This document shows positions 15,429 through 53,439 of a stretch of 64,000 bases of DNA, in pieces. Numbering within the stretch: position 1 is the first letter of the stretch; every line of letters begins with the position of its first letter. The notes below the pieces were generated by a model. It was not told the origin of the DNA, made no database searches, and saw only the letters and a program-made list of their open reading frames with translations. The stretch is from positions 32,001-96,000 of IMG/VR virus record IMGVR_UViG_3300028837_001424. The stretch is one strand, 5' to 3'. Position numbers and translations under genes: made by a program. Origin of the DNA: a virus.

Positions 15429-16844
15429 ATGGCAACTTATATTGGCTGCGATGGCGCAGAACAACAGAACACAGCCCTAGCTTACAGTACAGCCGGCACT
15501 ATAACTATTGATACGACTACAACCTGGAAATCGGGTGCGTCGTTTCGTATGAATTTAGATAACGAACAAGCTGATCTATACTACGGTTCGCAAGTCAACG
15601 CAGCAGATTATTTCGATAACGTAGACACCCGACCTTGGGGCTATTCCTTCCACCTATACATTGCAACTCTTCCGGGCGCTGAGAAGTATCTTCATTTCAC
15701 AGCAGTAAACAAACTTGTTGGCGGCGTAAATATGAAGGCTCGTGTCGACGAGAATGGTCAAGTCAGCATGTGGTCTGATTTCGCTGGGGCATATGTCAAC
15801 AGTGACGCTAATATCTCAACGGGCATCTGGTACGCTGTCCACGTTAGGGTTTATATTCCGGCTGGCTCTTTTGAGCTTGATATGTACAGAGCAGATAATA
15901 GTGTACAAGCATTCAGCACGCTTGCACGAGCCTCTGGCAACCGTAGCTTTAACGGTTGCTATTTGGGAGCCGTGGAAAACAGCACTGGCGATATGTATTT
16001 CGACAACTTTATTATTTCGGGCAATTCAGACGGCGAGAACTGTCGCGATACCGTTGGAGACGATTGGGTTGTTGGTATCTTGATACCTGATGGCACGGGT
16101 GCCCATGATGATGCTTGCTGGGATAATGACTGGACATTTGTGGATGAAATTCCACCCGACGACTTGGTGACTACTAGATCATGTGCTACTTTGGCTAATG
16201 CATTTACCGAAACTATGGAGGCGATGTCTGCTCTAGATCCGCCAGGTGTTGCAACGATACTAGGCGTCCAGCCAGTCTATCATGCTGGCGGTGATGGCGG
16301 GGTGGGGGGACGCTGTGAGTTGAGATTCAGGAGTGGCGGAACAGACTTTGATGGGAACGATCACATACCTGGGGCTGGCTGGAATGAGTTTTTTAGATAT
16401 TGCATGACTGATCCCGACAATGGTGCATGGACCGAAGCTGCCATTAACGCCTGTGAAGTTGGCTGCGAAAAGACGGATAATAATAAGTTGGTTAGAATAT
16501 CGACTTGTTACTTGATGGTGGCCTATCTTCCACACCCTGCACCGACCGTTACCGACTGCGATCCTGATACTGGCCCTACTGCTGGCGGGACTAGCGTGAC
16601 TCTGGCTGGCACCGGATTTAGAGATGGCGCGACGGTAACTTTCGACGGAGACGCTGCCGACAATATAGTGGTTGTCGATCCAACAGAAATTACCTGTGAC
16701 ACTCCTGCGCACGCGAAGGGTCTAGTTGATATAATAGTGACTAATGACGATACGCAGTCTGGAACTTTAGAAAACGGATTTGAATATCTTGCCGGTAATG
16801 GCGGCAAGAGCCATGCTAAAAGACAACTACTAGGATTAATTTAA
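15429..16844 (+). CDS. Virion protein with C-terminal IPT/TIG Ig-like domain
   Basis: PTVTDCDPDTGPTAGGTSVTLAGTGF...ITCDTPAH is an IPT/TIG pattern. Confidence 0.75.
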   Translation: MATYIGCDGAEQQNTALAYSTAGTITIDTTTTWKSGASFRMNLDNEQADLYYGSQVNAADYFDNVDTRPWGYSFHLYIATLPGAEKYLHFTAVNKLVGGVNMKARVDENGQVSMWSDFAGAYVNSDANISTGIWYAVHVRVYIPAGSFELDMYRADNSVQAFSTLARASGNRSFNGCYLGAVENSTGDMYFDNFIISGNSDGENCRDTVGDDWVVGILIPDGTGAHDDACWDNDWTFVDEIPPDDLVTTRSCATLANAFTETMEAMSALDPPGVATILGVQPVYHAGGDGGVGGRCELRFRSGGTDFDGNDHIPGAGWNEFFRYCMTDPDNGAWTEAAINACEVGCEKTDNNKLVRISTCYLMVAYLPHPAPTVTDCDPDTGPTAGGTSVTLAGTGFRDGATVTFDGDAADNIVVVDPTEITCDTPAHAKGLVDIIVTNDDTQSGTLENGFEYLAGNGGKSHAKRQLLGLI

Positions 16845-34122: not shown

Positions 34123-35405
34123 TTTTATTTATTAGCGACTTCGATTTTAGGGGTTCGGGATATCTGCACATAGCAACAAGCTTGTGCAACGAGTTGGCGA
34201 CTAGACATGGTAGAAAAGTTACTGCGTTGGGCATCGGCTACGACCGATCACAACACAATTGGCCCTTTTCGATTATTCCAGTTCGTCAGCGCGAATGGGG
34301 AAGACATATTCCAGCCATGGTCCATAACTTTATCCAGATGGGGAAATCTGGCCAATGGGATGAAGTAGAGGCGATTGTTGTTGCCTTAGATATTCCTATG
34401 CACGCAAATATGATGAAGATCAAAAGGGAAAACACGCCCTATATAGGCATCTTTCCAATTGAGAGCGGCCCTTTATGCAATACATGGGACTTTGCTATTG
34501 GTCACATGAGCGAACGATTAGTGATTAGCGAGTTCGGAAAGCATATGATTGACGAGTCTGGCACCAATACCTCCGTTTATATACCTATAGGAATCGATTC
34601 AACATCTTGGCGTATGCCATCGGATGTAGAAAGGAAGGCAATTAGGAAAGGGATGGGTTATGATGAAGATCAGTTTGTGGTTCTGACGGTTGCCGATAAT
34701 CAAGAGCGCAAAAACTTGAGCATAGCGGCAGATGTTATAGAGCGCCTCAAAAAACATTTAAACGTGAGGTGGTCGTTGGTGACTCGAATCAACTGTCCAG
34801 TAGGCTGGAAGCTCGACGATCTCATGCATCAATTCGACATAATTGATCAAGTAGATAAATATGATAAGGGACTGGCGTTTGATCGGCTATGGATGCTATA
34901 TGCTTCAGCAGACGCATTCCTGTTGACGAGCAAGGCCGAGGGGCTTTGTTTACCAATCCTAGAAGCAATGGCAACTGGGTTGCCAGTTGTGGCAACCTCT
35001 TGTACCGCAATTCCCGAACACATTTGGGAAGATCCTGATTGGAGTCGCTGTAGTGATGGTATCTGGCACAAAGGAAAGCCACGAGGCCGAAGAGGCTATG
35101 GTTTGAACGTGGAATACACAACTATTGATCCTTGGGGTAACTCCGTTAGAAGCTTTCCAGATCCCAAGCACGCCGTAAAATTGCTAAGGAAGATCGCCAA
35201 GATGAAGCCGTCTCAAAAGCAGGATTTCATTCAACCAGGTAGGGACTATGCCGTTGGTCGAACTTGGCAACGAGCAGGAAATGTACTGGAAGAGACGCTC
35301 AAACGGGTGATCAAAAAGGCGCAACCAAAAGATGAGCCTGGAACTGTGATACCATCATCACAGCCAAGGGTGATACCCGAAATAACAGAGGAGAATTCGG
35401 TATGA
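34119..35405 (+). CDS. Glycosyltransferase family 4
   Basis: SGY, RKN, SKAEGLCLPILEAMATGLPVV. Confidence 0.9.
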   Translation: MILFISDFDFRGSGYLHIATSLCNELATRHGRKVTALGIGYDRSQHNWPFSIIPVRQREWGRHIPAMVHNFIQMGKSGQWDEVEAIVVALDIPMHANMMKIKRENTPYIGIFPIESGPLCNTWDFAIGHMSERLVISEFGKHMIDESGTNTSVYIPIGIDSTSWRMPSDVERKAIRKGMGYDEDQFVVLTVADNQERKNLSIAADVIERLKKHLNVRWSLVTRINCPVGWKLDDLMHQFDIIDQVDKYDKGLAFDRLWMLYASADAFLLTSKAEGLCLPILEAMATGLPVVATSCTAIPEHIWEDPDWSRCSDGIWHKGKPRGRRGYGLNVEYTTIDPWGNSVRSFPDPKHAVKLLRKIAKMKPSQKQDFIQPGRDYAVGRTWQRAGNVLEETLKRVIKKAQPKDEPGTVIPSSQPRVIPEITEENSV

Positions 35406-36301
35406 GCAAGCGCACAAGGGCAAGAAAGCCAAAACAGGGAAGAGCAAGAAAGAAACAAGGACCAGCGCCGAAAACATTGGTTGATATCTGTATGCTGGTC
35501 TTTGGTGAGTGGGGGTTACTCTCAAAAGCTATCAGGGCGATTCCGGCTGCAGCCGAGGGGCTGAATGCCAGCTATCGAGTCATAGTCGTCGATAATGGCA
35601 CACCTGATTGGGAGACTGAGGAAAAGGAAATTGTAACGGCCAAGGAACAATCAGCACCAATTAAGGAACTGCTTAGGCCACAGGACATCTTTTTTAGGCT
35701 CGATGAAAACAAGGGCTTCCCCGGTGGTTACAACGTCGCGGTCGGCAAGGGGCGCTCGCCGCTTATTCTCATCTTGACTTCAGACGTTTTCCTGTTTCCT
35801 GGCGCGATTACAAAACTTGTTAGCGTTCTGGACGATCCTGAAGTTGGTATCGCAAGCCCGATGTTGCTCTATCCAGCGGACGAATCTCCCCACGGGCCTC
35901 CTGGTAGCGTGCAGCATGCCGGCATTGGATTCGATATTCGAGGCGATCCCTATCATATTTTCATGGGTTGGCAGCCAGATCATGAGAAGGTAAATCAGCG
36001 TAGAGAGTTACAAGCGGTTACGGGAGCATGTATTCTAACTCGGCGTGCTTTATGGCAAAGAATAGGCGGCTTCTCTGAGCTTTATAATCAGGGAACATTT
36101 GAGGATATGGAGCTTGCATTTGCCATCCGCCAAATGGGCTACAAAATAATTTTCGAGCCAAGCGCGCGAGGTGAACACTATGTTGGAGGTTCCATAAAAC
36201 ATGGTGCTATGAGGCCGGGTTTTAATCTCGCATTAAATTCAACAATTTTCCGTGGCCGTTGGGCACCATCTCTGAAATGGGATACTTATCGATTTTATTG
36301 A
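35402..36301 (+). CDS. Glycosyltransferase family 2
   Basis: VVDNG, NKGFPGGYN, AVTGAC, GGF, FEDME. Confidence 0.9.
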   Translation: MSKRTRARKPKQGRARKKQGPAPKTLVDICMLVFGEWGLLSKAIRAIPAAAEGLNASYRVIVVDNGTPDWETEEKEIVTAKEQSAPIKELLRPQDIFFRLDENKGFPGGYNVAVGKGRSPLILILTSDVFLFPGAITKLVSVLDDPEVGIASPMLLYPADESPHGPPGSVQHAGIGFDIRGDPYHIFMGWQPDHEKVNQRRELQAVTGACILTRRALWQRIGGFSELYNQGTFEDMELAFAIRQMGYKIIFEPSARGEHYVGGSIKHGAMRPGFNLALNSTIFRGRWAPSLKWDTYRFY

Positions 36302-36463
36302 CCCTGCCGTGCCAAGCCCAACCTAACATCGCCAGACCTCGCATCGCCAAGCCGTACTCCGCCGCGAACCGCCTAGCCATGCCTCGTTTATAATTCATTC
36401 CTAGCCTCGCCACACCGCACCAAACACTGCGCCACCTAGCCGGACACCGCCCCACCTTGCCCT
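36301..36463 (-). ncRNA. Pentamer array (NN-GGY), two units of 13 and 17 pentamers, downstream of RAMP-like gene 1; putative guide RNAs
   Basis: Minus strand AGGGC AAGGT GGGGC...GAGGC TAGGA, AT-rich linker, then C GAGGC ATGGC TAGGC...ACGGC AGGGT; strict 5-nt phase. Confidence 0.75.
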
Positions 36464-36466
36464 AAC

Positions 36467-36494
36467 TGGGGAGAGTTCTCACATACTCTCCCCA
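36467..36494 (-). other. 10-bp hairpin between RAMP-like stop codon and first pentamer unit
   Basis: TGGGGAGAGT / ACTCTCCCCA with 8-nt loop. Confidence 0.7.
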
Positions 36495-36501
36495 ATTCGA
36501 A

Positions 36502-37098
36502 TCAAAGTATCGAAACTTCGAATCGTCCATATGGCCCGCCCTTTGCAGGACGCCAATCGCCAAGACCTACAGCGTTGCCAGCCAGTTCGAGCCAGTGGAT
36601 GAGTCTGTCTTTATCCACAAACTCTTCGTTGTACTGTAGCTCGCCTTCAATACTCCAATCTTCTGGAATAATTGGGCGAGTGCGCATGACGGTAGCCTGC
36701 CCGACACGAACGCCAATGCGGAAGCGGAAGCGTTCATCTTTCCACAGTTCCTTGGGATCTTTAGGACCGTCGTATTGAAGGACATAGTGGTGGTCACAAA
36801 ATATACCAACACCTGCTGCCTTTCCTTCCTTCTCCATACGAGCGGCGCTACCCCTGCCAGCCAAGGCCGCCTTTAGTAATCGACCTGGAATGACAGGCAC
36901 TCCGTCATTGATGTATAGCGCACCCATAAACTCAAGGCGCGCCATTTCCTCGAAATCCTTCTCAGTCTTCTTGCGCTGAGAACTCACCTTCTTGAGCTTT
37001 TTTGCCCAAGTATTCAATGGATCTGCTAGCTGTCCATTGTGGAGGATCAGGGGGCTGATCCCCGTCAAACGAAATTTCAGAGTCTTCAGGACGTTCAT
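36502..37098 (-). CDS. Stand-alone RAMP/Cas7-like protein 1 (Vipr-like)
   Basis: N-terminal LTGISPLILHN, IPGRLLKAAL, RTRP...W, C-terminal G-rich loop GLGDWRPAKGGPYGRFEV; start ATG 37098 after GGAG. Confidence 0.75.
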   Translation of the reverse strand: MNVLKTLKFRLTGISPLILHNGQLADPLNTWAKKLKKVSSQRKKTEKDFEEMARLEFMGALYINDGVPVIPGRLLKAALAGRGSAARMEKEGKAAGVGIFCDHHYVLQYDGPKDPKELWKDERFRFRIGVRVGQATVMRTRPIIPEDWSIEGELQYNEEFVDKDRLIHWLELAGNAVGLGDWRPAKGGPYGRFEVSIL

Positions 37099-37396
37099 CG
37101 AACTTCTCCAATATCTTAACCGGCAAGCCCGCTTCCACATTGTCCTCTATTATCGTTTCGGCTCGACGTGAGTATCGAAGCCCTCTGATATATGAGGTGA
37201 GAAAGTCGTGGCATCGACGGCAGACGGTTATGAGATCCTCACCGATCTCTTCTCCGTATCTTTCGTATGTCTTATGATGCACCTCCAATTCTTCTACACA
37301 AGGAACTCCTGTTAATTCGGCAATGCCGAATATTTTTGAAAGTTGACATTCGTAGTTATCTCTTTCTAGGATTGCTTTTCTTACTAGGTTATCCAT
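36962..37396 (-). CDS. HNH endonuclease
   Basis: ILERDNYECQ...LEVHHKTY...DLITVCRRCHD; start reassigned to ATG 37396 (GGAG RBS); 3' end overlaps RAMP gene by 137 nt. Confidence 0.8.
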   Translation of the reverse strand: MDNLVRKAILERDNYECQLSKIFGIAELTGVPCVEELEVHHKTYERYGEEIGEDLITVCRRCHDFLTSYIRGLRYSRRAETIIEDNVEAGLPVKILEKFDERPEDSEISFDGDQPPDPPQWTASRSIEYLGKKAQEGEFSAQED

Positions 37397-37417
37397 AATG
37401 GACTCCGAATAAAGTAA

Positions 37418-37690
37418 TCCTTGCCTCGCCCTGTCGTGCCGGACCTTGCCAAACCGTACCAGACCGCGCCCAAACATACACTGCCAGATCCAGCCACGCC
37501 TGGCCGCGCCTCGAATATAATTCCTTCCCTGCCATGCCCCGCCGTATCCCACCGCGCCAGATCGTGCCTAGCCGGACTTCGCCACGCCAAACCACGCCTT
37601 GAACATAATTGCTGTCCTTGCCGCGCCCCACCAAACCTCTCCATGCAGCACCAAGCCTGGTCGCGCCAAACCTTAACTTACCGTGCCTCG
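37418..37690 (-). ncRNA. Pentamer array (NN-GGY), three units of 15, 15 and 19 pentamers, upstream of HNH-RAMP genes; putative guide RNAs
   Basis: Units 37689-37615, 37600-37526, 37512-37418; each begins C(G/A)AGGC and ends AAGGA or AGGGAAGGA, separated by AATTAT(A/G)TT linkers. Confidence 0.8.
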
Positions 37691-37818
37691 AAACCAAAAT
37701 CCCGCCACCCATTATTCGAGGTTGCCCTACCATGAACAAGCCAAGCTGTAATGGGAAGCGGGAGTCTGATCTCGATAAAAACAAAAGGCTTGGTAGATGT
37801 CCATGGCAGGTTAGTAGA

Positions 37819-37847
37819 AGTGTACCATAGCGGGCACAGTATGTCAA
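37819..37847 (-). promoter_or_regulatory. Sigma70 promoter driving array-HNH-RAMP-array operon
   Basis: TTGACA-17 nt-TACACT with extended TG. Confidence 0.75.
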
Positions 37848-37884
37848 GACCAATGTATTAATCGTTTAAAACAACCAAATTCCA

Positions 37885-37893
37885 TGATATAAT
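37885..37893 (+). promoter_or_regulatory. Extended -10 promoter of the divergent structured RNA
   Basis: TGA-TATAAT ~10 nt upstream of the RNA closing stem. Confidence 0.5.
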
Positions 37894-37902
37894 TATCTTT
37901 GC

Positions 37903-38234
37903 ACTTTACCAAACCAATCGCTTGGTGGCTCGAAGAATACCGTTCTACGGGTTAAAAAAGGCACACACGACAGGTGGCGGTGTGGTTCCAGGCGATGGGA
38001 AGCATAAGGGTCGTGGAGATCGGGCGAATGCGCCGCCTTACCGATCGAGCGCGACATCGTTGGTAGCTCAAAACTACATATCCAGTAGACGACGATGTGC
38101 GGGCAAGATTCCCGCCAGTGACGTTGATGCTAGCTAGGCCAGTTAGCGGAGTCCTGTGGCCCGAATAATGCGACTGATTGCCGAGAGGTTGGGAGGATTG
38201 GCATCCTCCCCTGAGCGATTGTGTTTGGTGAAGT
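37903..38234 (+). ncRNA. Unidentified ~330-nt structured RNA
   Basis: Ends pair (ACTTTACCAAAC-CAATCGCTTGG with CTGAGCGATTG-T-GTTTGGTGAAGT); several internal stems. Confidence 0.6.
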
Positions 38235-38459
38235 CATCAGAAAGGAAATTGGTAAATTTCATGGTAAAATAGATTTGCGAGCGCGCCTCTTCATTGGGCT
38301 ATATTTCCCCTAATGATGAGAACTACTCCTGAGTAGCGCTTAGCTCAGGAGGCTAAGCTGGTAACAGCGGACGCGGTAGCCGGTGCCGCTATACACAGAG
38401 ACCGGCAATCACTTTGTAACAAAGGAGGCCAACATGACGAACCTTTAGTGAGGTGAATC

Positions 38460-38663
38460 ATGTCCAAAATTCAGAAAGGCGGTAAGAAAAACCGCAAACA
38501 TGGCCGTGCAGCGCGCAAGCCCAAAACTGCACGGTATCGTATTTCCAATCGTCGAGCAAAAAATAAAACCAAAAGAGTTCTGCGTAGCAGCGGCAAAAAG
38601 GCTGCAAAACAATACGCGCGGGAACAAAACACAACTGGCTATCTACTCAAATTGCTAAGTTGA
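38460..38663 (+). CDS. Small very basic (K/R-rich) protein
   Basis: GAGGTG RBS; KGGKKNRKHGRAARKPK. Confidence 0.65.
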   Translation: MSKIQKGGKKNRKHGRAARKPKTARYRISNRRAKNKTKRVLRSSGKKAAKQYAREQNTTGYLLKLLS

Positions 38664-51985: not shown

Positions 51986-53439
51986 TGGGAAAAGGCAAAA
52001 AAAGACTAGAGGGCGCATTATCTAAGCTTATTGGAGATAAGGCCGACAAGCTTGAGTTGGTGCCGGCTAGCGTCGGTGCGTACATAAATGGTCGCAAGAC
52101 GGTCCAGGTTGTCGATAAGCCCGATTATATTTGGGTTCGTGTTCGAGGTACTACAGAGCAGAGGACACAGGCATTTAATTCGCATCCATCAGGCGTTGGT
52201 CACCATTGGGATTTGCCAGTTCTAATCTATAAAGATCCTGCCTTTCCTCAAATCTGGAAGGTGTATGGCAGAGACATTGAGAGATACACTGATTGGGAAG
52301 GTGTAGCATATCAAGTACCTCATGGAAGGAGTCATTCTTTTTTAGGCGGCTCTCAGAAGTGTGGTGATGATCCAGTGTGGGTTGCCCGCGAGCAAATCAC
52401 GCCATTACAACCTCACCCGAAACCTACTGGCACATGTGCTATTGATATAAGTTCTGACTTCTATTATTTCGGTGGTCGTTATCATTGGTTTACTGCAACT
52501 GGCACTATTGATCTTTGTGCTAGTTTTCTACCCACTGGTGGTCATCATGGCAAGTTTGTCACGGTTTATCTTGATGGTGATACAGGGAATCCTGCTTATC
52601 TTGAAGGACCTGAATTTGATCTTATTCTTGCTCCCACCGATCCTGGTATTTATATTTCTGTGCCAACTGACGAGCAGGGTGTACCAGTTGCAGCCTGTTT
52701 AATGACAACTGGAACCACATGGGTCGGATGGGGTGAACTATACGACTTAAGATTTATTCAATCACCAGTTGTTGCTACTGGTTCATATGTGTGGATTTAC
52801 GACGAAGGTGCTATCCAGGGACGGGTGCATTCATTAAATTTCGAGGGTGACGGAATCGCAGCTATTGTTTCGGGTAGTTTTGTGCATATCGTTTATACGC
52901 CACCAGCAGCGTCTTTGGGCGCAACCATGCACTGGGACGATGGTTCGCCTCTTTGTACTGGTACAATTATTGATTGGGGTAATAATCTTGATGTCTCTTG
53001 TAGTGGCACAGTGGTCCGTGTTGATGCATCGGGACTAGGAACCGAGGTTTTACTAAAAACGGCCCACAGTGATGCCGCTGATGCACATACGACAGATAAT
53101 ACGTGGGAAGACATTGACAGTATGGTTGTATTGATTTCTCCAACACAATCCTGTGATATTAAATCTGATATTACGTTTGAATGTAGCCCCGCGTCTGTCA
53201 ACTGGGAGCATTGGGCCATAAGGTTTGTACTTAATACTGGTACGTTTAGCGAAAATTGGGAGCGCGGCAAAGATGCTAATGCTGATCAAGATTGGCTAAA
53301 GCTTTTCCATTGCCATACTGTATTTGAAAACGTGTCTGCAGGCACACATCAAGTAAAGGCGCAATGGTGGGACAGAGGCTCTAACATGGACCTAACGTTT
53401 CAATCAAGACGATTAACGGTCACGACAATAGAAAGGTAA
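51985..53439 (+). CDS. Tail fibre/baseplate-related protein
   Basis: TAATG coupling; DEG...LNFEGDG motif. Confidence 0.55.
   Translation: MGKGKKRLEGALSKLIGDKADKLELVPASVGAYINGRKTVQVVDKPDYIWVRVRGTTEQRTQAFNSHPSGVGHHWDLPVLIYKDPAFPQIWKVYGRDIERYTDWEGVAYQVPHGRSHSFLGGSQKCGDDPVWVAREQITPLQPHPKPTGTCAIDISSDFYYFGGRYHWFTATGTIDLCASFLPTGGHHGKFVTVYLDGDTGNPAYLEGPEFDLILAPTDPGIYISVPTDEQGVPVAACLMTTGTTWVGWGELYDLRFIQSPVVATGSYVWIYDEGAIQGRVHSLNFEGDGIAAIVSGSFVHIVYTPPAASLGATMHWDDGSPLCTGTIIDWGNNLDVSCSGTVVRVDASGLGTEVLLKTAHSDAADAHTTDNTWEDIDSMVVLISPTQSCDIKSDITFECSPASVNWEHWAIRFVLNTGTFSENWERGKDANADQDWLKLFHCHTVFENVSAGTHQVKAQWWDRGSNMDLTFQSRRLTVTTIER

What the first reader, a model, noticed from the sequence alone, without database searches (positions are those of the whole stretch)
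36301..37847. Non-CRISPR RNA-guided candidate: RAMP/Cas7-like gene flanked by NN-GGY pentamer guide arrays
SEEN: one minus-strand unit runs promoter (TTGACA-17-TACACT), leader hairpin (37701-37762), three pentamer units, HNH, RAMP-like gene, 10-bp hairpin, two more units. The 79 pentamers (15+15+19+13+17) keep a strict 5-nt phase: a variable dinucleotide followed by a near-constant triplet, mostly GGC/GGT, with deviants nearly always keeping the 3' pyrimidine. Four of five units start C(G/A)AGGC and four end in (A/T)AGGA; AT-rich AATTAT linkers separate them, which suggests processing into separate RNAs. NN strings 5'->3': GA AC AA AA TT GC CA TT GC AT GA TT GG GC AA | AA GT TT GT GA CC TA AC CT GC GG AC GG AT AG | GA GC CA GT TG CT AG AT TG GC CT AC TT AA CC AC AG GA AA | AG AA GG GG CC TA GG AG TT GC GT GA TA | GA AT TA GG GC GG AC TT GA GA CT GA TA TG TT AC AG. 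No CRISPR repeats or other cas genes are in the window. KNOWN: Cas7-type RAMPs polymerise on RNA with a fixed nucleotide period. INFERENCE: each subunit grips the constant triplet and displays NN, so the dinucleotides spell a gapped target, perhaps in rival phages or host promoters. This matches my recollection of recently reported phage VIPR (GGY/NN) systems, which I cannot verify here.
Basis: partly seen in the sequence, partly recalled or inferred. Interest (0 to 1): 0.97.

Follow-up and report, generated by a model that had tools for sequence, protein, structure and literature searches.

The report
Phage VIPR guide-RNA system, HNH-linked
This marine-sediment phage carries a genuine VIPR system, the CRISPR-related RNA-guided DNA-binding machinery first described in 2026: a small Cas7-like protein, five guide RNAs built of GGY-NN five-base repeats and a conserved HNH nuclease, so it is a well-supported new example of a known kind and not a new kind of system.

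Summary
On the minus strand of 36301-37847 lie a sigma-70-type promoter, a leader hairpin, three NN-GGY pentamer units, an HNH gene, a 198-aa gene, a second hairpin and two more units. These are the only NNGGY-phased tracts in the 112.6-kb viral record.

The 198-aa protein matches the solved SUSP1 Vipr protein end to end (PDB 36pp, E 1.8e-29). It keeps every residue reported to read GGY and folds like Csm3/Cas7.

Among 160 homologous loci, 132 carry phased arrays on the vipr strand and 1 on the other strand. An HNH homolog lies directly upstream in 130. Its reading frame overlaps vipr by about 45 codons, more than synonymous shuffles allow.

This clade differs from the characterised type II systems. 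The accessory gene is a different protein and sits upstream, and the guide tails are short and AT-rich instead of a pseudoknot.

One guide (unit 4), read by the published 1-nt-skip rule, spells the C-terminal codons of rival vipr alleles better than those of its own gene. No target was found for the other four guides.

Expression and binding could not be tested. This scan has already found VIPR loci, several HNH-linked, in at least five other genomes. Verdict: new member of a known kind.

The parts
37819..37847 (-). Sigma-70-type promoter TTGACA-17-TACACT with an extended -10 TG; presumed start of the operon
   Evidence: Consensus scan, 10 of 12 matches. Function is inferred, not shown.
37700..37763 (-). 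Leader hairpin upstream of the first guide unit
   Evidence: RNA fold -30.5 kcal/mol, z -4.57, 0 of 200 shuffles as good. No Rfam family. Relatives' arrays often start directly at the gene end, so it is not conserved.
37615..37690 (-). vrRNA unit 1: 15 YNNGG/NNGGY repeats, starting after a C and ending in AAGGA; short AT-rich tail/linker at 37614-37601
   Evidence: Phase view and counts
37526..37601 (-). vrRNA unit 2: 15 repeats; tail/linker at 37525-37513
37418..37513 (-). vrRNA unit 3: 19 repeats; the tail at 37417-37397 holds the GGAG ribosome-binding site of the HNH gene
36962..37396 (-). HNH accessory gene (144 aa). Its last ~45 codons overlap vipr, with vipr in the +1 frame relative to HNH
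   Evidence: - Family matches: Pfam HNH and PHROG HNH endonuclease.
- Conserved residues: D13, C17, H40, H41, C59, C62, H63, R71 and R74 are invariant in 28 aligned clade members, and D54 is conserved in at least 90%.
- Linkage: a homolog lies directly upstream of vipr in 130 of 160 loci.
- Overlap: longer than in synonymous shuffles.
- Closest solved relative: the HNH domain of Cas5-HNH Cascade.
36502..37098 (-). vipr gene: 198-aa minimal RAMP (Cas7-like) protein
   Evidence: - PDB 36pp 'SUSP1 Vipr protein', E 1.8e-29 over residues 5-197.
- phrog_4652, E 2.7e-50.
- H20, R141, D181, W182 and R183 correspond to the GGY-reading residues of SUSP1.
- AlphaFold2 pLDDT 91.5; top Foldseek PDB hits are all Csm3/Cas7.
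36465..36496 (-). 12-bp hairpin just after the vipr stop codon. It has no U-run, so it is not an intrinsic terminator
   Evidence: -20 kcal/mol, z -4.99; the terminator scan finds none on this strand
36399..36463 (-). vrRNA unit 4: 13 repeats; tail/linker at 36398-36386. Under the 1-nt-skip rule it spells the C-terminal codons of vipr
   Evidence: for the repeats; for the decoding
36301..36386 (-). vrRNA unit 5: 17 repeats. It lacks the AGGA-AATTAT tail and abuts the stop codon of the convergent glycosyltransferase gene (35402-36301, + strand)
36509..36546 (-). Near-self site of unit 4 inside this phage's own vipr (codons AKGGPYGRFEVSI). NN match is 18 of 26, and the two 3'-most NN are fully mismatched
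   Evidence: (alignment printed)

Best explanation
This is a VIPR (Viral Interference Programmable Repeat) locus in a complete 112.6-kb phage genome assembled from marine sediment.

Transcription and processing (inferred). One promoter probably drives a transcript of about 1.5 kb: leader hairpin, three guide units, HNH, vipr, a hairpin and two more guide units. It would be cut in the short AT-rich linkers into five vrRNAs of about 75-115 nt.

Guide loading and DNA binding (by homology to SUSP1 Vipr; residues shown to be conserved, activity not shown). Vipr protomers line up on each vrRNA, one per pentamer. H20, R141 and D181-W182-R183 hold the flipped-out GGY. The NN dinucleotides are displayed and pair with double-stranded DNA that carries the same dinucleotides separated by one skipped base. 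This gives an R-loop triplex that blocks transcription.

Role of HNH (inferred). The small HNH protein is conserved next to vipr across this clade, overlaps it and keeps its catalytic and zinc-binding residues. It is the clade's accessory (vap-type) protein and most likely nicks or cuts the DNA that the filament has bound.

Targets. At least one guide (unit 4) appears aimed at the 3' end of rival vipr alleles and spares its own copy. This points to phage-versus-phage competition. Targets of the other four guides are unknown.
For: Protein:
- Full-length match to the solved SUSP1 Vipr (E 1.8e-29; 38% identity to the gene in phage SUSP1).
- The GGY-reading and DNA-clamping residues named in the cryo-EM paper are conserved. 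H20, R141, D181 and R183 are invariant, and R42 and W182 at least 90% conserved, in 31 homologs.
- High-confidence model with a Csm3/Cas7 fold.

Arrays:
- They are unique in the genome and strand-specific.
- 132 of 160 homolog loci have phased arrays on the vipr strand against 1 of 160 on the other strand, 347 segments against 1.
- The clade-wide logo is the same as the window's: N,N about 0 bits, GGY conserved.

HNH:
- Adjacent and co-oriented in 130 of 160 loci, with a conserved catalytic core.
- The overlap is under selection: 135 nt against 51 nt in synonymous shuffles, 114 of 129 loci above their null median, window p 0.03.
- The nearest solved relatives are HNH domains of RNA-guided effectors: Cas5-HNH Cascade at E 3.7e-4 and IscB.

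Context and targets:
- The record is viral with CheckV completeness 100%.
- No self-target at 80% NN match or more, as in the published controls.
- Unit 4 matches rival alleles P0001 and P0007 at 20-23 of 26 NN positions, against 18 of 26 on its own gene. None of 3000 order-shuffled and none of 3000 random guides reach this.
Against: - No expression, processing, RNP or binding data exist for this locus.
- The guide tails are short and unstructured, unlike the roughly 40-nt pseudoknot tail of the characterised SUSP1 clade, so processing and 3' capping may differ.
- Four of five guides have no identified target in the phage's own genome, in 160 rival loci or at IMG/VR seed hits.
- The unit 4 target rests on protein sequences of relatives. 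Their DNA could not be fetched, so the NN match is a range of 77-88% that straddles the published 80% cut-off.
- HNH nuclease activity and any contact with Vipr are inferred only.
- The canonical Asn of HNH is Asp (D54) in this clade.
Confidence: 0.9

Rival explanations
1. It is a VIPR system that only silences transcription, as in SUSP1. The HNH protein does not cut the guided target. It would instead be a DNA-binding accessory, a vrRNA-processing factor, or a phage HNH with another job such as helping the terminase.
For: - The only tested VIPRs (type II) act by repression, and Vap1 is not a nuclease.
- The canonical Asn of HNH is Asp here.
- Only three Cys are invariant, so the zinc site is atypical.
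Against: - The catalytic His pair and the CxxCH motif are invariant in 28 aligned clade members.
- The preprint itself reads nuclease-type vap genes as target destruction.
- The nearest solved HNH domains belong to RNA-guided DNA cutters and nicking enzymes.
- Terminase-helper HNH genes sit beside the terminase, not overlapping a RAMP gene in 127 of 128 loci.
Confidence: 0.25
2. The HNH gene is a selfish homing endonuclease that happens to sit in this locus and has no part in the system.
For: Small free-standing HNH genes are common mobile insertions in phage genomes (general knowledge). The Pfam score is only just above the cut-off.
Against: - Same position, orientation and +1-frame overlap with vipr in about 130 of 160 loci, whose Vipr proteins share only 40-60% identity.
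- The overlap is kept open beyond what synonymous shuffles allow.
- The presence of HNH clusters on the Vipr tree: 17 changes against 32.6 in shuffles, 0 of 500 shuffles as low.
Confidence: 0.02
3. The pentamer tracts act as DNA or coding sequence and not as guide RNAs, for example as G-rich recombination or G-quadruplex sites, protein-binding iterons, or Gly-rich ORFs.
For: Open reading frames of 86-196 aa cross the tracts. G-runs could form structures.
Against: - A 5-nt period cannot encode a repeating peptide, and those frames are open only because the sequence lacks stop codons.
- The tracts are strictly on the vipr strand in 132 of 160 loci against 1 of 160.
- The protein beside them has the solved GGY-RNA-reading pocket.
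- The same repeats are experimentally shown to be RNAs in SUSP1 and P. fulva.
Confidence: 0.01

Closest known systems
Type II VIPR of Escherichia phage SUSP1 and of the Pseudomonas fulva prophage (bioRxiv 10.64898/2026.04.26.720920 and .720927; PDB 36pp, 36PK)
   Same: - Homologous Vipr protein (38% identity, full length) with the same GGY-reading residues.
- GGY/NN pentamer guides flank the gene on both sides, on the same strand.
- Phage-borne, with no self-targeting.
- One guide aimed at rival vipr genes, as reported for the SUSP1 family.
   Different: - The accessory gene is a 144-aa HNH placed upstream and overlapping vipr. SUSP1, LESphi2 and LittleE have a downstream 146-190-aa non-nuclease vap1-like gene.
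- Tails are 13-21 nt, AT-rich and unstructured instead of a roughly 40-nt pseudoknot.
- Units hold up to 19 repeats, against the 9-16 reported.
- The quick tree puts SUSP1, LESphi2 and LittleE in a separate, 98%-supported clade without HNH.
Nuclease-bearing VIPR types (III-V) and the HNH-domain Vap shown in Fig. S21 of the discovery preprint
   Same: A predicted HNH nuclease serves as the accessory protein. The preprint proposes target destruction rather than repression for such types.
   Different: - The preprint describes types III and V as enriched in bacterial defence islands. This locus sits in a complete phage genome, and 80 relatives come from viral contigs.
- The type to which this clade belongs could not be determined, because the figures, tables and reference sequences are not held.
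Csm3/Cas7 backbone subunits of type III (and type VII) CRISPR effectors
   Same: RRM-based RAMP fold with G-loop and thumb. Foldseek top hits have E about 1e-4, probability 1.00 and TM 0.45-0.53. Both polymerise on RNA with a fixed period.
   Different: - Sequence identity is only 10-16%.
- The period is 5 nt instead of 6.
- Three bases are flipped out per repeat, leaving a gapped 2-nt code.
- There is no CRISPR array, no Cas10, Cas5 or Cas6, and no adaptation genes.
Cas5-HNH (type I-E HNH) Cascade
   Same: An HNH nuclease works with a RAMP-based, RNA-guided DNA-binding complex. Its HNH domain is the closest solved relative of this clade's HNH (profile E 3.7e-4; 32-35% identity, rmsd 1.9-2.8 Å).
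   Different: There the HNH is fused to Cas5 within a multi-subunit Cascade that uses a contiguous spacer. Here it is a separate small protein with a disordered tail, next to a single-protein filament that uses a noncontiguous code. Whether it contacts Vipr is unknown.

Membership tests
VIPR system | Vipr protein: homolog of the minimal single-RRM RAMP defined by SUSP1 Vipr | tested here: met
   PDB 36pp_D E 1.8e-29, residues 5-197 of 198; SUSP1 genome hit E 1.1e-32; model pLDDT 91.5 with Csm3/Cas7 as top fold matches
VIPR system | Residues that recognise GGY (SUSP1 H17, R138, D177, W178, R179) and that contact DNA (K33, R39, K82, K88) | tested here: met
   H20, R141, D181, W182 and R183; K36, R42, R87 (K to R) and K93. 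H20, R141, D181 and R183 are invariant and R42 and W182 at least 90% conserved in 31 homologs.
VIPR system | vrRNA genes: tandem YNNGG (GGY/NN) repeats, at least 4 units, next to vipr on the same strand | tested here: met
   Five units of 13-19 repeats, found nowhere else in the genome. Same linkage in 132 of 160 homolog loci.
VIPR system | GGY conserved while NN is hypervariable among related systems | tested here: met
   Across 337 units in 160 loci, N,N carry 0.01-0.05 bits and G,G,Y carry 1.6, 1.3 and 0.85 bits; NN entropy is 3.93 of 4 bits.
VIPR system | Invariant structured 3' tail after the repeat tract (a pseudoknot in the SUSP1 clade) | tested here: inconclusive
   Tails here are 13-21 nt with a shared AGGA...AATTAT motif but no stable fold (z -0.6 and +0.1). 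Clade-wide, only A(A/G)GGA is conserved. This may match the 'staggered' arrays mentioned in the preprint.
VIPR system | Accessory vap gene in the operon | tested here: met
   HNH gene directly upstream in 130 of 160 loci, overlapping vipr. An HNH-type Vap is mentioned in the preprint.
VIPR system | Mostly viral or proviral context | tested here: met
   The window is part of a 112,591-bp IMG/VR virus record with CheckV completeness 100%. Tail and other phage genes are in the window.
VIPR system | Targets follow the 1-nt-skip rule (NNx), often wobble-aligned in coding sequence, with no self-target at 80% or more | tested here: inconclusive
   - No self-target: the best own-genome matches are 61-69%.
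- Unit 4 is wobble-aligned on the vipr C-terminal codons, at 77-88% on rival alleles against 69% on its own gene, with 0 of 6000 null guides as good.
- The other four guides gave no target.
VIPR system | vrRNAs are expressed, processed and co-purify with Vipr; the RNP binds dsDNA | not testable with these tools
   Needs small-RNA sequencing, pull-down and binding assays.
CRISPR-Cas | Array of direct repeats of about 24-40 nt separated by unique spacers, together with cas genes | tested here: not met
   The direct-repeat search finds only the pentamer tract at 39691-39833. There is no Rfam CRISPR-DR or any other family hit. A systematic cas-gene scan of all ORFs was not run.

The most novel reading that the evidence does not exclude
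The HNH-linked clade, to which this locus and about 130 fetched relatives belong, is a phage-borne RNA-guided DNA-cutting VIPR and not a silencer. The nuclease would be recruited through the disordered C-terminal tail that is encoded inside vipr. This phage would also run two orthogonal noncontiguous-code systems side by side: GGY/NN with HNH, and AGC/NN with a T5orf172/GIY-YIG-type gene. Their constant triplets would be told apart by two G-loop residues, DW against AY.
Probability: 0.3. Interest if true: 0.6.

Novelty: new member of a known kind. Interest (0 to 1): 0.4.

Why it matters
This adds a clean, complete environmental example to a system class that is only months old. It also sharpens four points that the held text of the preprints does not spell out:
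- A very large HNH-linked radiation of Vipr proteins lives on viral contigs, not only in bacterial defence islands.
- In that radiation the nuclease gene overlaps vipr by about 45 codons, and the overlap is under selection.
- The clade's HNH is closest to the HNH of Cas5-HNH Cascade, which parallels the proposed VIPR-to-CRISPR link.
- Guide tails can be short and unstructured.

The unit 4 result extends the idea of guides that hit rival vipr genes and spare self from enterobacterial phages to an unrelated marine-sediment phage. None of this changes the category. It is useful for annotation, and as a compact candidate (a 198-aa protein plus a 144-aa nuclease) for anyone testing whether VIPR can cut DNA as well as silence it.

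Tried and rejected
The DNA of the closest relatives (P0001, P0002, P0004, P0005, P0007; 77-88% identity) could not be fetched. Orthologous-array comparison and the exact NN match of unit 4 remain open.
- **The search for related loci with the single protein** found nothing in IMG/VR. The alignment-based scans worked.
- **megablast of the locus against GenBank phages**: no match.
- **Target searches by the 1-nt-skip rule:**
  - Own genome: best 61-69%, within shuffled controls.
  - 160 rival loci: best 62-70%, within controls.
  - IMG/VR with exact seeds of eight NN pairs for all five guides, plus a second seed for unit 3: 86 seed hits in all, with extensions at chance. The best is 24 of 30 for unit 1, where 0.33 such hits are expected by chance.
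- **Near-self sites of the other guides** in the phage's own ORFs, by total score and by longest run, are not above shuffles.
- **Complex prediction of Vipr with HNH**: no verdict, score 0.00. This is no evidence either way.
- **The look-up of sequencing runs**: no RNA holder listed. The only holders are two DNA runs of one marine-sediment sample, which may be the source of this DNA.
- **Read laying on three runs**: no variants. The only other matches are 36-42-nt pieces over the HNH catalytic motif from other contigs.
- **Rfam**: no family, in particular no hammerhead between units.
- **tRNA scan**: none.
- **Host**: not identified. Cellular relatives are scattered over several phyla at 35-48% identity.
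- **VIPR type number (I-VII)**: not assignable, because the preprint's figures and tables are not held.
- **Control replaced**: my first control for the gene overlap (the third reading frame) was unfair, so I replaced it with synonymous-codon shuffles.
Full report
**Observation.**

Read on the minus strand, 37847-36301 holds the elements below.

| Element | Coordinates | Note |
|---|---|---|
| Promoter | 37847-37819 | TTGACA-17-TACACT with a TG extension |
| Leader hairpin | 37763-37700 | -30.5 kcal/mol, z -4.6 |
| Pentamer units 1-3 | 37690-37615, 37601-37526, 37513-37418 | 15, 15 and 19 repeats |
| HNH gene | 37396-36962 | 144 aa |
| 198-aa gene | 37098-36502 | the RAMP-like gene |
| Hairpin | 36496-36465 | 12 bp, z -5.0 |
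| Pentamer units 4-5 | 36463-36399, 36386-36301 | 13 and 17 repeats |

- Of the 79 pentamers, 57 are perfect NNGGY. Of the 22 deviants, 17 keep the pyrimidine and 5 are GGA.
- Each unit starts after a C. Four units end in (A/T)AGGA followed by an AT-rich AATTAT-type linker of 13-21 nt.
- In the whole 112,591-bp record, only these two stretches reach 7 or more of 12 in-phase NNGGY pentamers. The maximum is 9, and shuffles reach at most 6.

The HNH frame continues 137 nt into the next gene.

**The protein.**

- The 198-aa product has no Pfam family.
- It matches PHROG 4652, of unknown function, at E 2.7e-50.
- It matches the solved "SUSP1 Vipr protein" (PDB 36pp) at E 1.8e-29 over residues 5-197.
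- A global alignment with the SUSP1 gene product gives 38% identity.
- The residues that the cryo-EM paper names as reading G1, G2 and Y3 are SUSP1 H17, R138, D177, W178 and R179. They map onto H20, R141, D181, W182 and R183. The DNA contacts K33, R39, K82 and K88 map onto K36, R42, R87 and K93.
- In 31 aligned homologs, H20, R141, D181 and R183 are invariant, and R42 and W182 are at least 90% conserved.
- An AlphaFold2 model has pLDDT 91.5 and pTM 0.85. Its best Foldseek matches in the PDB are all Csm3/Cas7 subunits, with E about 1e-4, probability 1.00 and TM 0.45-0.53.

**Linkage to arrays.**

I fetched 160 loci that encode homologs (40-58% identity) from IMG/VR and from metagenome contigs.

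- Phased NNGGY arrays lie on the vipr strand in 132 of them and on the opposite strand in 1. That is 347 segments against 1.
- The pooled logo of 337 units is the same as the window's. N,N carry about 0 bits, G,G carry 1.6 and 1.3 bits, and Y carries 0.85 bits. NN entropy is 3.93 of 4 bits.
- The nearest relatives also have arrays both upstream and downstream, with short linkers that begin A(A/G)GGA.

**What is known.**

Three 2026 preprints describe VIPR systems.

- A Vipr RAMP protein binds vrRNAs made of 9-16 YNNGG repeats plus a 3' tail.
- The filament binds dsDNA by a 1-nt-skip code and silences transcription.
- Natural targets are satellites, prophages and rival VIPR loci.
- Seven types differ in their arrays and accessory (vap) genes. 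Some vap genes are predicted nucleases.

The window meets the sequence-level criteria for membership. Expression, RNP formation and binding cannot be tested here.

**How this locus differs from the characterised type II systems.**

- In SUSP1 the order is vrRNA1, vipr, a 146-aa vap1, then vrRNA2-4.
- LESphi2 and LittleE likewise have a downstream gene and no upstream HNH.
- Here, and in 130 of 160 relatives, a small HNH gene lies directly upstream and co-oriented.
- A quick maximum-likelihood tree puts SUSP1, LESphi2 and LittleE in a 98%-supported clade without HNH. The window sits in a large HNH-linked radiation. The HNH label needs 17 changes on the tree against 32.6 in shuffles, and 0 of 500 shuffles are as low.
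- The tails are short and unstructured, and no ribozyme lies between units.
- I could not assign the type number, because the preprint's figures and tables are not held.

**The HNH partner.**

- It matches Pfam HNH and PHROG HNH endonuclease families.
- D13, C17, H40, H41, C59, C62, H63, R71 and R74 are invariant in 28 aligned clade members. D54 sits at the position of the canonical Asn and is conserved in at least 90% of them (one search gives similar figures for 111 sequences).
- The reading frame runs past the vipr start, with vipr in the +1 frame, in 127 of 128 loci. The median overlap is 143 nt.
- Against synonymous-codon shuffles of vipr, the observed open length is 135 nt against 51 nt. 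It exceeds the null median in 114 of 129 loci, and 48 loci have p of 0.05 or less. For the window p is 0.03. The overlap is therefore maintained by selection.
- The model is confident for residues 1-90 and disordered for 95-144.
- The nearest solved relatives are the HNH domain of Cas5-HNH Cascade, nicking endonucleases and IscB. The profile E-value for Cas5-HNH is 3.7e-4; Foldseek gives 32-35% identity and rmsd 1.9-2.8 Å.

I infer, but have not shown, that this HNH nicks or cuts DNA bound by the Vipr filament.

**Targets.**

- Under the 1-nt-skip rule none of the five guides hits the phage's own genome above shuffled controls. The best matches are 61-69%. A skip of 3 trivially finds the arrays themselves. 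This agrees with the published no-self-targeting control.
- There is no hit in the 160 rival loci.
- Six seed-and-extend scans of IMG/VR used exact seeds of eight NN pairs. Five seeds were taken from the 3' end of each guide, where the R-loop nucleates. They gave 86 seed hits whose extensions are at chance.
  - Unit 4 reads [S/R][K/N]GGPYG[S/R][F/L]AV[D/E]Y.
  - The phage's own Vipr ends in ...AKGGPYGRFEVSIL.
  - The closest rival alleles (P0001 and P0007, 85-88% identity) read SKGGPYGRFEVEI.
- The NN match is 18 of 26 on the phage's own gene (36546-36509). There the two 3'-most pairs are fully mismatched.
- On the rival alleles the match is 20-23 of 26. It is a range because Ser and Arg codons are ambiguous and I hold only the proteins.
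- None of 3000 order-shuffled guides and none of 3000 random guides reach either bound.

This matches the published class of guides that hit the end of rival vipr genes with a lower self-match. The other four guides show nothing comparable.

**Context.**

- The record is a CheckV-complete virus found in marine-sediment runs.
- No host could be inferred.
- About 2 kb away lies a second system of the same design. A T5orf172/GIY-YIG-type gene (40827-40297) overlaps a 212-aa RAMP-like paralog (40469-39831) by 173 nt. The paralog matches the C-terminal part of Vipr at BLASTP E 5e-6.
- It is followed at once by 27 perfect NN-AGC pentamers.
- Its G-loop reads GLCAYRP where Vipr has GLGDWRP. The two residues that read G1 and G2 have changed along with the constant triplet.
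- That locus is a separate first-stage finding, and I only checked that it is real.

**Verdict.**

The locus is a new member of the published VIPR kind. It belongs to an HNH-linked, mostly viral clade with an overlapping nuclease gene and short tails, and one of its guides is probably aimed at rival vipr alleles. This scan has already reported VIPR loci, several of them HNH-linked, in at least five other genomes. Interest is moderate.

Noticed in passing
window 39691-40827, minus strand: A second VIPR-like module in the same phage. A T5orf172/GIY-YIG-type gene (40827-40297; Pfam PF10544, E 1.6e-5) overlaps a 212-aa RAMP-like paralog (40469-39831) by 173 nt. The paralog is followed at once by 27 perfect NN-AGC pentamers. 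Its G-loop is GLCAYRP against GLGDWRP in Vipr, so the two residues that read G1 and G2 differ along with the constant triplet. This suggests two orthogonal guide codes in one genome.
   Followed up: partly
window 37900-38240, plus strand: Region transcribed divergently from a TTTAAA-17-TATAAT promoter (37865-37893), next to the VIPR promoter. The 341 nt fold at -139 kcal/mol (z -4.1, 0 of 100 shuffles as good) with a long closing helix. There is no convincing ORF, no Rfam family and no tRNA or tmRNA.
   Followed up: partly
window 38460-38663, plus strand: A 67-aa ORF that is extremely rich in Lys and Arg lies just downstream of the structured region. Its function is unknown.
   Followed up: no
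window 36301 / 35402-36301: The last repeat of guide unit 5 abuts the stop codon of the convergent GT2-type glycosyltransferase gene. Any 3' tail of unit 5 would therefore be antisense to that gene's end. Unit 5 also has its best, but not significant, near-self match (22 of 34) inside the same gene, at 36077-36126.
   Followed up: partly
related loci L013, L083, L032, L086: Relatives show very different array sizes: single tracts of 27-34 repeats (L083, L013) and arrays of seven to nine units (L086, L032). This is well beyond the 9-16 repeats and four guides of the characterised systems.
   Followed up: no
window 16578-16621 (+) and 52051-52094 (-): The 3' half of guide unit 2 spells TLAGTG. 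Two of the phage's own structural-region ORFs contain TLAGT(G/N) in the wobble-aligned register, as runs of 6 and 5 perfect NN pairs. Shuffled guides reach a run of 6 in 3 of 60 trials, so this is only a weak hint of a target in rival phages' structural genes.
   Followed up: partly
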